A DNA stretch of 33,020 bases from a virus (lineage: Duplodnaviria; Heunggongvirae; Uroviricota; Caudoviricetes): positions 1 to 33,020 of the IMG/VR virus record IMGVR_UViG_3300017613_003292. One strand, given 5' to 3'. The translations under genes and the position numbers were made by a program. Positions within the stretch are counted from its first letter, which is position 1; every line of letters starts with the position of its first letter. The notes under the pieces were generated by a model. That model searched no databases and was not told the origin of the DNA. It saw nothing but the letters and a program-made list of their open reading frames with translations. Below are positions 2,747 through 19,118 of the stretch, piece after piece.

Positions 2747-2889
2747 GTTTTGCCTCCTTTCGTTTGGTTTGGGGTTTTTTCTGTGGTTTCAGTCAGCCCA
2801 ACGCCATCTAAAACCACTACAAAAACAAGATCATAATAATACAAAAAATCAATACGGACTTCCTAACGGAGTGAGGCCAAGCGTCAAAG

Positions 2890-3010
2890 TTCTGATAGGT
2901 TCTGATAGGTTCTGATAGGTTCTGATAGGTTCTGATAGGTTCTGATAGGTTCTGATAGGTTCTGATAGGTTTTGATAGGTTCTGATAGGTTCTGGTGGGT
3001 TCTGGTAGGT
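2890..3010. repeat. Tandem repeat, 12 x 10 bp (TCTGATAGGT)
   Basis: Directly visible: 8 perfect copies at 2891-2970, then TTTGATAGGT, TCTGATAGGT, TCTGGTGGGT, TCTGGTAGGT. Confidence 0.95.
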
Positions 3011-3136
3011 TAATCCCGATAAGAAAAGTACGGATTGGATAGTCGCGTTGATTTGTTGCCAAAGGCAACCGGCCTTTCCGTCCCGGTGGTTTTCCTGCGG
3101 GGGTGGGTTTGATTTATTGAGAAAAGAAAAGGGGTT

Positions 3137-16137: not shown

Positions 16138-17052
16138 TTAATTCTCTTTAAACGGATGATTGATTGGCAATCCCTCTAATGTTCGCCATTGTATGTATAA
16201 ATCAACCAGGAATGCTTTGACCATGTATCGTATGGACATACGGTATTTGTGAATTTTGGTTTTCTCTCTGTGCCTGTCACTTGTGTCAAGCCATTCGCGA
16301 TATTCTCTATACACACCTTCATACTTTGACCGGCTGCCCTGTTTCAAGAAGCTCGGCCCGAGCACGCCGCATAGTTTCGTTTTCAAGAATGGATTGAATG
16401 TAATTGATTTTTTGGTGGCGGTTTTGCCTTCTTTTGTTGTGTATTCAACATCGATAAGATGGCTTGCCTTTTTACATCGTCCCTCTCCAACGACCTCGCC
16501 ATTCTCTCCTTCGGTCAGGACTACATCTAACCCTGCGTATTTCCAAAAGCTGGCGGCAAAGTCAGCTTCTTTGGGATTCAATTCGCTGATGATTACAGCC
16601 GCAATGGCTGGGCCGATGCCCTGGACACCTGATAGAAATTCTGTCCAGATTGGGAAGTCGTCGAGAATATCAACGAGGTCTTTGAATTGCCTTTGTTCTG
16701 TGGATGACAGGCGCATGTAGGTGCTGACCATGCTTAGTTCTGCACGGTTGGTAATGAGGGGATTTTCTTTTGGCGGGAATTTATCTTTTAAGGGGCTGTC
16801 CGGATCGACAATTCCTTCAGTGATGTTTTTGTATGCAAGTTTGATGTTTTCGAGCAGTGTTTTATCTTTTTTACTGATACTGCTCTCGGATTCTTTTTCG
16901 CTGGGCTTGATACCCAGCTTACTTTTGAATGCTGCGACAATACGATTGCCGGTTTGAATTCTTAATTTTTGGAGGGCATACACTCCCCTTACGATAGTTT
17001 TTAGTTCCTGTTGCAATGCCACTTGATCCTGTTTGTTTGTTTGTGAGGTCAT
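16138..17052 (-). CDS. tasA: Second TasA-like Nop/IS110-C-terminal-domain protein (no nuclease domain)
   Basis: LQKLRIQTGNR, PIWTEFLSGVQGIGPAIAAVIISE, SFWKYAGLDV, TFNPFLKTKL, HKYRMSIRYMVKAFLVDLYIQWRTLEGLP; no DEDD RuvC domain. Confidence 0.8.
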   Translation of the reverse strand: MTSQTNKQDQVALQQELKTIVRGVYALQKLRIQTGNRIVAAFKSKLGIKPSEKESESSISKKDKTLLENIKLAYKNITEGIVDPDSPLKDKFPPKENPLITNRAELSMVSTYMRLSSTEQRQFKDLVDILDDFPIWTEFLSGVQGIGPAIAAVIISELNPKEADFAASFWKYAGLDVVLTEGENGEVVGEGRCKKASHLIDVEYTTKEGKTATKKSITFNPFLKTKLCGVLGPSFLKQGSRSKYEGVYREYREWLDTSDRHREKTKIHKYRMSIRYMVKAFLVDLYIQWRTLEGLPINHPFKEN

Positions 17053-17053
17053 T

Positions 17054-17146
17054 TGGTTTTGCTCCTTCTTCTTTGAGGGATTCTATAGCGTGATGGTTAT
17101 TTTGAGTTCATCTCCTTTTTATTCATGGGTGTCTAAAGTCATTTGG
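17054..17146 (-). repeat. Possible degenerate TIGR-like units upstream of the second tasA
   Basis: Minus strand: CCA-aatgacttt-AGACACCCA-tgaataaaa-AG (17146-17115) and CCA-tcacgctat-AGAATCCCT-caaagaaga-AG (17096-17065), i.e. 9/9/9 spacing. Only two units, 50 nt apart. Confidence 0.3.
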
Positions 17147-17165
17147 GATTTAGAGTTATGGCTTT

Positions 17166-19118
17166 CTATATTTTGTTGTTTCCATATATTAAATCTATAA
17201 TGGTCGTTTTGTCTAAATTTTTGGGGCTGAGATCAATGAAACGATTATTTTCTTTGCATATTTCAAATTCCTCTTCGTTCATAAAACTCAGAGTCTCTTC
17301 CATGTTGCTGACAACCTTGCCGCCTGCGGATACAATCATATCGTTGAGTGATAATGTTCCGAGCATACTGCTCACAAGATATTTCCGGCTGTGCATTATA
17401 CTTGATGACCTACTGGCAGTCATGCCGCGATCAACAGACATGTGTGTAAAATAAAATCGCAGTTCTTCTTTAACTCGGACGATCATGCCGATAATGCATT
17501 GTTGGTTATTTATGATGATATTTTCTGCCATTATGATATTGTTTGGATTAACCATGTAATTTTTTGCAAGGCTTTTAAAATTTTTACCTATCTTTTCATT
17601 GCTTGCAATGATTTTACATGGAATCTCTTCATCTCCTTCATATCTGTTATAATGATTGACTATTACGATTTTTGCGTCTTCATTCACATTGTTGCGCACA
17701 TAAAATAGTTCTGTCGCGCCCTTTGGCTGTGGTGCGTCTGTCAGATCACCAGAAAATAAAATCCTTCCGTCTTTACTCCGATAGTTTGCATCCCAACCGA
17801 ACTTGGTAGACACATCAATCATTGATATATCAAGATCAACTCTTGTTTTTTCAGTATTGGTCCAATGGATGCCGCATACCAAGTCGTCTAGTACTGTGAC
17901 ATAACTATTTGTTGGAACGTTACCGACGAATTGTTTTTCGGTGGCAGGCATGGCATATCGGATGCTTTGTGGAATTCTAAAAATACGGCCGTTTACTCTT
18001 TCTGCCATATCGGCAGCAATAGCGTCTGTGACAACACATAACGCATCGGTTGCTTCAGTATTGCAGACTGGATTCCATGGCATATCAGTTGCGTAACCTT
18101 TTCCGTTACGAACGCGATAAACAATTGATCCGAGACCATTTATACGATTTATGAGTGCTTGTGCCAAGCGAATTTTACGATTCATCGGCGCGTTTGTAAT
18201 TTTATTCTCTAATCGGGTCAGAGACAGTGTGCCCCTTATGATACTTGCCGTTACGTTATTGAGATAATCTTCCGGCAGTGGTTTATGGAATTTTGTGGCT
18301 TTTTTTCTGAGCTGATTGAAGACAGTTTTGTTTTTTGCAGCTGATTTCATGGCCAGGAAAATCGGTTTATACCTGTAAAAAATAGATGCCAGATTGTTTG
18401 GTGCTCGGCTCATGAGCATATCGATGAATTTTCCATTGGAATTTTTTATTTTGTTGATCAGATAATCGTTTTTGATAACCAAGGATTCATCTGTAAGCTT
18501 CACAATGGCGTACCGTAAAAATTCTTCAGGATCGGATGGTGCCATGTTGTAATGGTCGTAAAGTCGAATCTTGAATTCTCGGTTTGTAATCAAATCTATA
18601 AAATTTGGTTTAAATTTTAGGTCATAAACCAGATCCATCATGTCCTGTAATACTTTTTCCGACAGGGCGATGCCTGCACTGCCCAGTTTGATGATTTCAT
18701 CACGAATATTCTGGGTTGACATGGCTTTGATGTATTTCAATTCGAAGCTTTCCTTGATTTCTGGAATATCCAAGCGTTCATGAGGAATAAAGACCGTTGC
18801 CTCATTGTATATACCCAGCGTTTCAAAACCATAAGTGGTCATATAATGCATAATCTGCTGAAAAAATAAGACTTCAAGGGGGGTATCCCGAACGACGTCC
18901 CAGGATTTGTGGAATGTGGCATTCATGCGTTCGCCAGATGTACTGAGTACTTCTTCGATCATGACAAGAAGAGTTTCTGTCACGGGAATGCGGGGGTCAA
19001 TGATGAATCCATTTTTGACAGTCCTGTCCAGGATGGCTTCATTGAATTTCGGAAGAATTTCTGAGAATTCAGGAACATGTACACCTTTGAATAGTCTTAT
19101 CGTAGCGATCTGTGCCAT
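17166..19118 (-). CDS. Large phage protein with C-terminal TerD-like domain
   Basis: C-terminal GIHW...VDLDISM...GWD...LFSGDLTDAPQPKGATELFYV resembles TerD/TerZ-type domains; helical N-terminal part with QQIMHYMTTYG. Confidence 0.7.
   Translation of the reverse strand: MAQIATIRLFKGVHVPEFSEILPKFNEAILDRTVKNGFIIDPRIPVTETLLVMIEEVLSTSGERMNATFHKSWDVVRDTPLEVLFFQQIMHYMTTYGFETLGIYNEATVFIPHERLDIPEIKESFELKYIKAMSTQNIRDEIIKLGSAGIALSEKVLQDMMDLVYDLKFKPNFIDLITNREFKIRLYDHYNMAPSDPEEFLRYAIVKLTDESLVIKNDYLINKIKNSNGKFIDMLMSRAPNNLASIFYRYKPIFLAMKSAAKNKTVFNQLRKKATKFHKPLPEDYLNNVTASIIRGTLSLTRLENKITNAPMNRKIRLAQALINRINGLGSIVYRVRNGKGYATDMPWNPVCNTEATDALCVVTDAIAADMAERVNGRIFRIPQSIRYAMPATEKQFVGNVPTNSYVTVLDDLVCGIHWTNTEKTRVDLDISMIDVSTKFGWDANYRSKDGRILFSGDLTDAPQPKGATELFYVRNNVNEDAKIVIVNHYNRYEGDEEIPCKIIASNEKIGKNFKSLAKNYMVNPNNIIMAENIIINNQQCIIGMIVRVKEELRFYFTHMSVDRGMTASRSSSIMHSRKYLVSSMLGTLSLNDMIVSAGGKVVSNMEETLSFMNEEEFEICKENNRFIDLSPKNLDKTTIIDLIYGNNKI

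What the first reader, a model, noticed from the sequence alone, without database searches (positions are those of the whole stretch)
16138..17052. Second, divergent TasA-like gene 4 kb from the first
It is clearly the same Nop/IS110-C-terminal family but only distantly similar to 11217-12107. It has a longer N-terminal helical region, no zinc finger and a different insert (GEGRCKK...TFNPFLKTKL), and no long array beside it. Two nuclease-less Tas paralogs in one phage could be orthogonal systems with different RNA motifs, share one array in trans, or form a heterodimer (inference; Tas proteins are described as dimers).
Basis: partly seen in the sequence, partly recalled or inferred. Interest (0 to 1): 0.72.

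Follow-up and report, generated by a model that had tools for sequence, protein, structure and literature searches.

The report
Orphan second TasA without processing tail
This uncultured 97-kb phage carries a second, genuine RNA-guided DNA-binding protein (TasA) that, unlike about 200 relatives checked, has neither its own guide-RNA array nor the two tail residues that cut guide RNAs, so it probably borrows guides made by the complete TIGR-Tas system 3 kb away.

Summary
Window 16138-17052 (-) is an intact 304-aa ORF with a Tas Nop fold. Its family profile hits solved TaTasR 9mty (E 9e-20) and SpTasH (E 4e-14), and Foldseek ranks TasR and TasH first. It has no nuclease domain, no zinc ribbon and no array beside it.

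Three points are new:
- **Family.** Its "different insert" is the conserved core of a family of more than 1,396 proteins. That family is ordinary dual-repeat TIGR-TasA: at least 73 of 80 viral relatives have a 36-nt array next to the gene.
- **Missing tail.** Of 199 relatives checked, 119 of 119 proteins and 78 of 80 loci keep a C-terminal Tyr and His. These align with the SpTasH tigRNA-processing residues Y289 and H296. This copy has Phe in place of Tyr and stops before the His. The 97-kb genome holds only the tasA1-linked arrays.
- **Conserved pair.** A 6.8-kb metagenomic contig (L083) carries the best homologues of both paralogs (58% and 57% identity). There tasA2 is intact and directly abuts the array-helper-array-tasA1-array cassette.

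The core of the protein appears conserved. The best reading (about 0.4) is an orphan effector loaded in trans with guides matured by TasA1. A recently disabled relic (about 0.25) and a TasA1 heterodimer (weak modelling support) remain open. This is a new variant of a known kind. The scan had already noted the array and tasA1 in this same window.

The parts
16138..17052 (-). tasA2: a 304-aa nuclease-less Tas (Nop-domain) protein of the dual-repeat TIGR clade. It has no array of its own and has lost the C-terminal Tyr/His processing tail.
   Evidence: ORF. Family profile against PDB: TaTasR 9mty E 8.8e-20, SpTasH E 4.2e-14. AF2 model pLDDT 87.3, pTM 0.81. Foldseek ranks TasR and TasH first, then IS621 and ISCro4.
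16138..16170 (-). Truncated 3' end of tasA2. It reads ...LEGLPINHPFKEN*, whereas relatives read ...LEGLPVxxxYxEAKLGxxHxxAA*. The Tyr is replaced by Phe and the TAA stop lies at the position of the conserved Lys codon.
   Evidence: Alignment A1. C-termini of 80 loci and of 119 proteins. Alignment to SpTasH Y289 and H296 (residues from PMC13421893). No downstream frame encodes KLG..H.
16074..16137 (-). A 64-nt spacer between tasA2 and the next gene. It contains no repeat unit. In relatives an array usually starts here.
   Evidence: Sequence. Arrays of relatives start 20-250 nt after the stop codon.
15864..16073 (-). A 69-aa gene directly downstream of tasA2. In contig L083 its homologue lies after the whole TIGR cassette, so it marks the shifted position of the cassette.
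   Evidence: tblastn of L083 genes on the genome.
12193..12846 (-). A 217-aa helper gene of the tasA1 cassette and a candidate TasParB. Homologues accompany tasA1-family genes in most related loci.
   Evidence: tblastn finds a homologue beside tasA1 relatives in about 35 of 53 loci. AF2 pLDDT 91.8. The best VIA match is the ParB DNA-binding domain 6s6h_B, Z 6.1, rmsd 3.7, 96 residues, which is weak. Pfam and PHROGs give nothing.
12136..12180 (-). A short TIGR array segment (about 1.5 units) between the helper gene and tasA1.
   Evidence: Motif hits TTAAATTCA, TATAAATCA and TTAAAATTA spaced 18 nt apart.
11217..12107 (-). tasA1: a 296-aa zinc-ribbon TasA that keeps the Tyr/His pair (Y268...H275, GLYMEIIKGH). 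It is the likely tigRNA maturase.
   Evidence: Alignment A2: H275 is invariant and Y268 nearly invariant. PHROG 4285.
10816..11200 (-). Dual-repeat TIGR array of about 11 units of 36 nt. Repeats TATAAATCA and TTAAAATCA alternate with 9-nt spacers. It is the only guide source found in the genome.
   Evidence: TRF period 36. Register laid out. Whole-genome scans.

Best explanation
tasA2 is a genuine TasA of the dual-repeat TIGR clade: a coiled-coil dimerisation hairpin plus a Nop RNA-binding domain, with no nuclease. In the lineage of this phage it lost the array that its family normally carries. In this phage it also lost the flexible C-terminal tail with the Tyr/His pair that cuts pre-tigRNA. 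The fold itself is untouched, because the last helix ends at residue 293 and only the tail is missing. The protein core has been kept by selection. I therefore think it most likely works as a second, trans-loaded effector. TasA1, which keeps its Tyr/His pair, matures the 36-nt tigRNAs of the neighbouring array-helper-tasA1 cassette. TasA2 dimers pick up some of these mature guides and bind the same DNA targets, probably acting as a cleavage-free blocker or repressor like other TasA proteins.

What is shown and what is inferred:
- Shown: the family, the fold, the missing array, the missing tail and the conserved pairing of the two genes.
- Inferred by homology: loss of processing activity.
- Inferred only: loading with TasA1-type guides and the repressor role.
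For: - **Family and fold.** The profile hits TaTasR (E 8.8e-20) and SpTasH (E 4.2e-14). Foldseek ranks these first. The AF2 model has pLDDT 87.3.
- **Arrays in relatives.** 65 of 80 IMG/VR relatives show a 36-nt dual-repeat array next to the gene by a strict scan, and at least 73 of 80 by a looser one. The nearest outgroups, P0025 and P0020, have their own arrays with A-first repeats.
- **No second array here.** The genome has no second array and no A-first units above chance: 11 scattered pairs against 5.25 in shuffles, none near tasA2.
- **Missing tail.** The tail Y.EAKLG..H aligns to SpTasH Y289/E292/K293/H296. Those residues are catalytic or required for pre-tigRNA processing (PMC13421893). 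78 of 80 loci and 119 of 119 proteins keep the Tyr and His. This copy has Phe and a stop before the His, and no frame downstream restores it.
- **TasA1 keeps the pair.** It has Y268 and H275.
- **Selection.** Contig L083 holds the best homologues of both genes. Protein divergence is equal (dN 0.36 and 0.35). WIN and P0002 are sisters with support 0.97 and equal terminal branches of 0.60 and 0.57. Outside the tail, tasA2 keeps 81 of 91 columns that are at least 90% conserved, and most changes are conservative.
- **Shared repeats.** In L083 an array with the same UAUAAAUCA/UUAAAAUCA repeats begins 70 nt after the tasA2 homologue, which is where this family's own array normally sits.
- **Rarity.** Two Tas genes in one phage are unusual. 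Nineteen other Tas-bearing phage records of 56-237 kb each have exactly one.
- **Published function.** TasA proteins act as RNA-guided repressors (bioRxiv 10.64898/2026.09.09.750476).
Against: - The cassette repeats start with U (UA...UCA), like the tasA1 family (UG...CCA). The tasA2 family uses A-first repeats (AG...CCA or AA...UCA). Cross-loading would therefore need a change of specificity, and nothing here shows that it happened.
- No RNA data exist for this phage.
- tasA2 is the most deviant of 80 family members at conserved columns: 15 changes against a median of 3, five of them in the tail.
- It shares with its L083 sister a change in the pan-Tas motif HRHNMA, which reads HKYRMS in both. 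This could mean new specificity, but it could equally mean relaxed function.
- The tail loss may be recent. A weak out-of-frame remnant, IKKHQQ*, is visible in the +1 frame. If so, it says nothing about long-term tolerance of the loss.
- Seven per cent of the genome is missing and could hold an array.
Confidence: 0.4

Rival explanations
1. Recently disabled relic. tasA2 lost its array when the tasA1 cassette arrived or the region was rearranged. The tail truncation is then the first visible lesion of a gene now drifting towards loss, and it no longer does anything.
For: The array and the catalytic tail are both missing, a combination seen in none of about 200 relatives. tasA2 has the highest number of departures at conserved columns in the family. 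The cassette sits at a different place than in L083, so the region has been rearranged right at the 3' end of tasA2. A possible out-of-frame remnant of the old tail suggests a recent indel.
Against: The 304-codon frame is otherwise intact and has a good ribosome-binding site. The terminal branch is no longer than that of the intact sister (0.60 against 0.57). The 10 non-tail departures are mostly conservative, and all 37 columns invariant in the 31-sequence alignment are kept. The truncation removes only a flexible tail and no part of the fold.
Confidence: 0.25
2. Heterodimer. TasA2 pairs with TasA1 through the coiled coil and forms an asymmetric dimer on one tigRNA. Only the TasA1 protomer then needs the processing residues.
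For: The complex prediction of TasA2 with TasA1 scored 0.60 (runs 0.57-0.70) against a best control of 0.01. The verdict was 'weak support'. The runs agree in at least 71% of contacts and the partner pLDDT is at least 77. In the calibration the mark was reached by 58 of 80 solved complexes and 2 of 110 mismatched pairs, but at 0.60 or under by only 7 of those 80 and by both mismatches that passed. Tas proteins are obligate dimers (PMC12045711).
Against: Solved Tas homodimers exist, so the pass may come from likeness alone, and a homodimer was not tested for comparison. The coiled-coil arms differ by about 60 residues in length. The edge and loop repeats of the array carry the same box motifs (U..AAAUCA), which fits a symmetric dimer (rule from PMC12045711). 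In 19 other phages one Tas protein suffices.
Confidence: 0.12
3. Orthogonal system with guides encoded elsewhere. TasA2 would use A-first tigRNAs from the missing 7% of the genome, from the host, from a co-infecting phage or from single non-tandem units. One version of this is a guide sponge that soaks up the mature tigRNAs of rival phages, so that it needs no processing activity.
For: The tasA2 family as a whole recognises A-first repeats. Xu et al. found arrays at only 6,685 of 20,096 tas loci and leave open an 'alternative guide RNA source' for array-less Tas proteins. The genome is 93% complete.
Against: No A-first units above chance occur in 97 kb. In L083 the only arrays near the homologue are U-first. 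There is no precedent for guide capture between phages.
Confidence: 0.1

Closest known systems
TasA of dual-repeat TIGR-Tas systems (e.g. FpTasA; Faure et al. 2025, PMC12045711), with the solved relatives TaTasR (9mty) and SpTasH (9w03, 9w04)
   Same: The same Nop-domain fold with a coiled-coil hairpin, recognisable by sequence profile and by structure. There is no nuclease domain. Almost all members of its own family sit next to 36-nt dual-repeat arrays.
   Different: This copy has no array of its own and lacks the Tyr/His pair (SpTasH Y289 and H296) that matures tigRNA. It also carries HKYRMS where Tas proteins have HRHNMA.
TasParB-TasA operons (Faure et al. 2025, fig. S14 and methods)
   Same: The neighbouring cassette (217-aa helper, zinc-ribbon tasA1, arrays between and after the genes) matches this published layout. 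tasA2 is linked to it in two phage lineages.
   Different: The published operons are described with one tasA gene. Here a second tasA from a different Tas family rides along. Likeness of the helper to ParB was only weakly seen here (VIA Z 6.1).
Stem-loop-clade Tas proteins lacking the Y/H loop, and the array-less compact TasR branch (Xu et al. 2026, bioRxiv 10.64898/2026.09.09.750476)
   Same: These are natural Tas proteins without the processing residues or without a detectable array. They imply that guide maturation or supply can come from elsewhere.
   Different: Those are whole clades with short CTD5 regions. tasA2 is a single member of a Y/H-bearing dual-repeat family that lost the tail secondarily.
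CRISPR effectors that use crRNAs from another system's array (type III complexes using type I arrays and Cas6; own knowledge, not checked here)
   Same: The proposed logic is the same: one locus supplies and matures the guides, and a second effector without its own array or processing enzyme uses them.
   Different: The protein families are unrelated. Sharing is experimentally shown for CRISPR and only inferred here.
IS110-family recombinases (IS621 8wt6/8wt9, ISCro4 9t56)
   Same: The C-terminal RNA-binding domain is shared (Pfam PF02371 near threshold; Foldseek E 2e-3 to 4e-2).
   Different: There is no DEDD/RuvC-like catalytic domain, no bridge RNA and no element ends. The PHROG label 'transposase' is misleading.

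Membership tests
TIGR-Tas, TasA subtype (dual-repeat clade) | Nop-type RNA-binding domain with a coiled-coil hairpin, homologous to solved Tas proteins | tested here: met
   hmmsearch of the family profile: 9mty E 8.8e-20, SpTasH E 4.2e-14. AF2 pLDDT 87.3. Foldseek top 11 hits are all TasR or TasH, E 4e-7 to 5e-4.
TIGR-Tas, TasA subtype (dual-repeat clade) | No HNH or RuvC nuclease domain | tested here: met
   The 304-aa protein is all helical before the Nop core. Pfam gives no nuclease domain.
TIGR-Tas, TasA subtype (dual-repeat clade) | A TIGR array (alternating 8-12-nt repeats, 9-nt spacers, 36-nt unit) beside the gene | tested here: not met
   No array lies within the flanks, and the 97-kb genome has none other than those at tasA1. 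The feature is met in at least 73 of 80 relatives.
TIGR-Tas, TasA subtype (dual-repeat clade) | C-terminal Tyr/His pair for pre-tigRNA processing (SpTasH Y289 and H296) | tested here: not met
   The protein ends ...PFKEN*, with Phe for Tyr and a stop before the His. tasA1 keeps Y268 and H275.
TIGR-Tas, TasA subtype (dual-repeat clade) | Binds processed 36-nt tigRNA and through it an 18-bp DNA target | not testable with these tools
   Needs RIP-seq or EMSA. No sequencing run holding this phage was listed.
TIGR-Tas, TasA subtype (dual-repeat clade) | Dimer through the coiled coil | tested here: inconclusive
   Only the TasA2-TasA1 pair was modelled: 0.60 against a control of 0.01, 'weak support'. 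The homodimer was not modelled.
IS110-family transposase | N-terminal DEDD (RuvC-like) catalytic domain (Pfam PF01548) together with the C-terminal PF02371 domain | tested here: not met
   Only PF02371 is seen, at E 6.6e-4 over residues 139-179. There is no PF01548 hit, and the N-terminus is a helical hairpin.
TasParB-TasA operon (for the neighbouring cassette) | A ParB-like gene in an operon with tasA, with arrays upstream, between or downstream | tested here: inconclusive
   The gene order and arrays fit. The helper recurs beside tasA1 relatives. The ParB fold is seen only weakly: VIA rank 1, 6s6h_B, Z 6.1. Foldseek, Pfam and PHROGs find nothing.

The most novel reading that the evidence does not exclude
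A phage runs two different Tas effectors on one pool of guides. TasA1 (with its helper) is the maturase and first effector. TasA2, which gave up its own array and its catalytic tail, is loaded in trans. This would be the first natural case of guide sharing and division of labour between Tas paralogs. The clade-specific change HRHNMA to HKYRMS would then mark the switch of repeat specificity from A-first to U-first repeats.
Probability: 0.3. Interest if true: 0.7.

Novelty: new variant of a known kind. Interest (0 to 1): 0.5.

Why it matters
TIGR-Tas was described in 2025, and about two thirds of known tas loci have no detected array. Where array-less Tas proteins get their guides is stated as an open question (Xu et al. 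2026). This locus offers a small, testable natural case. It contains one complete system and, beside it, an array-less paralog from an array-bearing family that also lacks the processing residues. If TasA2 is loaded in trans, that would show three things: Tas proteins can be separated into maturase and effector roles, repeat specificity can shift between families, and some 'orphan' tas genes are not orphans functionally. If it is a relic, the locus documents how a resident TIGR system is displaced by an incoming cassette. Either result is useful for annotating TIGR-Tas loci and for engineering minimal Tas effectors that do not process RNA.

Tried and rejected
- **Hidden arrays.** k-mer periodicity scans of the whole genome found only the tasA1 arrays. 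The 66-nt periodicity at 44.4-46.9 kb is a coding Ser-Pro-Ser-Glu repeat in a 916-aa protein, not an array.
- **A-first or generic box-motif units.** Counts were at chance level and none lay near tasA2.
- **Intragenic or stem-loop tigRNA in tasA2.** Nothing periodic was found, and Rfam and ARAGORN found nothing in the window.
- **Self-targets.** I searched both possible 18-nt geometries of the nine clean tigRNA units against the 97-kb genome. Only low-complexity A/T-rich hits at 2 or more mismatches appeared, and none lay at tasA2.
- **Close relatives.** The phage collection gave no DNA match at blastn sensitivity. The exact protein is not on record elsewhere.
- **Sequencing runs.** None was listed for 10700-17200, so expression could not be examined.
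- **Promoter and terminator scans.** Counts were near shuffle level and there was no terminator on the coding strand.
- **dN/dS between the window and L083.** dS is saturated, so only dN is usable.
- **Frameshift or sequencing error as the cause of the truncation.** No frame restores KLG..H. The +1 frame reads RLKRIKKHQQ*, which is too short to be significant.
- **ParB identity of the helper.** Pfam, PHROGs, a PDB sequence profile and Foldseek gave no match. VIA gave only Z 6.1 to a ParB DNA-binding domain.
- **A tasA2-type gene near other tasA1 relatives.** None was found within 10 kb in 53 loci or in the P0124 contig.

Full report
**1. The observation**

Window 16138-17052 (-) is an intact 304-codon ORF with an AAGGAG ribosome-binding site 8 nt before the ATG. 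I call it tasA2, and I call 11217-12107 (-) tasA1.
- Both proteins hit PHROG 4285, which is labelled 'transposase' (E 2.5e-25 and 1.7e-20).
- tasA2 touches Pfam PF02371, the IS110 C-terminal domain, just under threshold (20.4 against 21.3 bits).
- Pairwise BLASTP aligns only 45 residues around the GIGP helix (42% identity).
- Profiles of the two families match at probability 99.5%, E 3.6e-23, with 21% identity over 212 columns.

**2. What tasA2 is**

It has more than 1,396 homologues at E below 0.001. Most are about 287 aa, 45-58% identical, and come from metagenomes and viral contigs.
- A profile of 31 of them finds the solved TaTasR (9mty, E 8.8e-20) and SpTasH (9w03 group, E 4.2e-14) by sequence alone.
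- The AlphaFold2 model is confident (pLDDT 87.3, pTM 0.81). It shows a long helical hairpin (residues 7-45 and 103-130), the GIGP helix, a four-stranded sheet (177-216) and a helical C-terminal bundle that ends at residue 293.
- Foldseek ranks TasR and TasH chains 1-11 and IS621/ISCro4 recombinases next.

It lies at a different site from the tasA1 zinc ribbon. There is no nuclease domain.

**3. What its family normally looks like**

I fetched 80 IMG/VR loci that encode relatives.
- 65 have a 36-nt periodic array directly beside the gene by a strict k-mer test.
- A looser box-motif scan recovers arrays in most of the rest, so at least 73 of 80 have one.
- The units are textbook dual-repeat TIGR: AGACAACCA and AACGAGTCA (or AGCGAGCCA, AGAAACCCA, AGTGAACCA) alternate with 9-nt spacers.
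- The second base of each repeat covaries with the third-from-last base (AG...CCA against AA...UCA). This matches the box D/box C pair described by Faure et al. (PMC12045711).
- 78 of the 80 encoded proteins, and all 119 other proteins of the first search, carry a Tyr and a His in a C-terminal tail with consensus Y.EAKLG..H.
- In the HMMER alignment this tail lies on SpTasH L-Y289-V-Q-E292-K293-L-G-H296. Y289 and H296 are the catalytic residues for pre-tigRNA maturation, and E292 and K293 are also required (PMC13421893). [quoted passage not shown]

**4. What is different in this copy**

- **No array.** The 64 nt after its stop codon and the 113 nt before its start hold no repeat unit. The window's repeat words occur only at 10816-11200 and 12136-12180. 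The window is bases 1-33020 of a 97,020-nt IMG/VR virus record that is 93% complete. A scan of that whole genome finds no other array. The periodic signal at 44.4-46.9 kb is a coding Ser-rich repeat. A-first repeat pairs are at chance level: 11 scattered against 5.25 in shuffles.
- **No processing tail.** The protein ends ...LEGLPINHPFKEN*. Phe stands where the Tyr should be, and the TAA stop falls where relatives have the conserved Lys, so K, L, G and H are all absent. None of the three frames downstream encodes KLG..H. A single base-calling error therefore cannot explain the loss. The +1 frame reads RLKRIKKHQQ*, which might be a remnant of an older tail, but it is too short to be significant.
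- **TasA1 is intact in this respect.** It keeps Y268 and H275, which are nearly invariant and invariant in its family.

**5. The pair is inherited, and the cassette has moved**

The best homologue of tasA2 (P0002, 58% identity) and the best homologue of tasA1 (P0122, 57% identity) lie on the same 6,780-nt JGI contig, L083.
- The order there is: tasA2' (tail PYHVAKLGLRDHRKAA intact), a hairpin, 3 repeat units, a 200-aa helper, about 11 units, tasA1', about 10 units, then a homologue of the window's 69-aa gene.
- In the window that 69-aa gene follows tasA2 directly. The helper-tasA1-array cassette lies 3.3 kb further on, after radical-SAM-like and phosphoesterase genes.
- All L083 arrays use the same UAUAAAUCA/UUAAAAUCA repeats as the window.
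- The tasA1 family (53 loci) normally uses UGCGAGCCA/UGAAACCCA and is usually followed by a homologue of the helper. No other tasA1 locus has a tasA2-type gene within 10 kb.
- A PHROG 4285 search of 19 other Tas-bearing phage records of 56-237 kb, 14 of them at least 90% complete, found exactly one Tas gene in each and two only in this genome.

**6. Is tasA2 still under selection?**

- On a maximum-likelihood tree, tasA2 and P0002 are sisters (support 0.97) with equal terminal branches of 0.60 and 0.57.
- Between the window and L083, dN is 0.36 for tasA2 and 0.35 for tasA1. dS is saturated.
- At 96 columns that are at least 90% conserved, tasA2 departs at 15 against a median of 3. Five of these are the missing tail, and most of the other ten are conservative.
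- The two sisters share a change in a motif conserved across Tas families: HRHNMA becomes HKYRMS at residues 268-273.

The core therefore looks maintained. The tail loss is specific to this phage and is possibly recent.

**7. Mechanism**

The truncation removes only the flexible tail after the last helix. By homology with SpTasH mutants this should abolish guide maturation, and the core RNA-binding fold is not visibly affected (inference). The genome has one guide source and one Tas protein with an intact Tyr/His pair. The most economical reading is that TasA1 matures the tigRNAs and TasA2 uses them in trans, acting as a cleavage-free DNA binder or repressor as shown for other TasA proteins.

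The main obstacle is repeat specificity. The tasA2 family uses A-first repeats, whereas the cassette uses U-first repeats like the tasA1 family. Nothing here shows that TasA2 can bind them.

The rival readings are:
- a recently disabled relic;
- a TasA1-TasA2 heterodimer. The model scored 0.60 against a best control of 0.01, rated 'weak support'. The runs agree in at least 71% of contacts and partner pLDDT is at least 77. The pass may come from likeness to solved Tas homodimers;
- guides supplied from elsewhere.

**8. Comparison with what is known**

tasA2 belongs by fold and sequence to TasA of the dual-repeat clade, but it fails two features of that clade: the adjacent array and the Tyr/His pair. 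The neighbouring cassette fits the published TasParB-TasA layout. I could only weakly see ParB likeness in the helper (VIA rank 1, 6s6h_B, Z 6.1, rmsd 3.7, 96 residues; Foldseek, Pfam and PHROGs found nothing). Neither the Science paper nor the 2026 preprint mentions paralogs, orphans, heterodimers or trans use. Earlier notes of this scan had already described the array and tasA1 in this same window, and my results agree with them.

**9. Verdict**

This is a new variant of a known kind: an orphan TasA paralog that lacks the processing tail and is linked to a complete TIGR-Tas cassette in two phage lineages. Interest is moderate (0.5), because it gives a concrete natural test case for how array-less Tas proteins obtain guides.

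Noticed in passing
window 16240-16257 (tasA2 residues 268-273): The motif HRHNMA at the start of the last helix is conserved in the tasA2 family, the tasA1 family (GHRHNMA), TaTasR (HAHNRA) and SpTasH (HRHGAA). It reads HKYRMS in both tasA2 and its L083 sister. It might mark a change of RNA specificity, but its role is not described in the papers I read.
   Followed up: partly
window 16100-16150 (-), +1 frame after the tasA2 stop codon: The +1 frame reads RLKRIKKHQQ*, which faintly resembles family tails such as KLGIKHRAA*. It could be the remnant of a small frameshifting indel. It is too short to test.
   Followed up: partly
L083:990-1035: A perfect hairpin (GATCAGCTT...AAGCTGATC) lies between the stop codon of the tasA2 homologue and the first repeat unit. 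This suggests that tasA2 and the cassette are separate transcription units there.
   Followed up: no
L083:1036-1160: The three units just after the tasA2 homologue carry variant repeats (ACTAAATCA, TTACAACCA, TGAAAACCA). These look intermediate between the cassette type and the tasA2-family type (AGACAACCA, AGAAAACCA).
   Followed up: partly
window 11165-11173 and 10879-10887 (-): Two spacers of the array are near-duplicates shifted by one base (TCGGGCTGG and TCGGCTGGA). This hints at unit duplication within the array.
   Followed up: no
window 12193-12846 (-): The 217-aa helper of the tasA1 cassette folds confidently (pLDDT 91.8) into a helical N-terminal domain plus a 50-residue C-terminal coiled coil. 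No sequence library recognises it. The best structural match is a ParB DNA-binding domain, and it is weak.
   Followed up: partly
window 14616-15164 (-) and 13603-14223 (-): A small radical-SAM/4Fe-4S-like protein (182 aa, CNRNCEGCC motif, Pfam Fer4_12 E 5.7e-6) and a calcineurin-like phosphoesterase (206 aa) lie between tasA2 and the cassette. The first has a homologue in L083.
   Followed up: no
window 2889-3011: A perfect 10-nt tandem repeat, GTTCTGATAG, present in 12.3 copies (TRF score 218), inside or beside an 83-aa ORF.
   Followed up: no
window 17166-19118 (-): A 650-aa protein directly upstream of tasA2 has no Pfam or PHROG match.
   Followed up: no
L001-L080 arrays: Across arrays of the tasA2 family, the second base of each repeat covaries with the third-from-last base (AG...CCA against AA...UCA). 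This is an independent confirmation of the box D/box C pair in a TasA family.
   Followed up: partly
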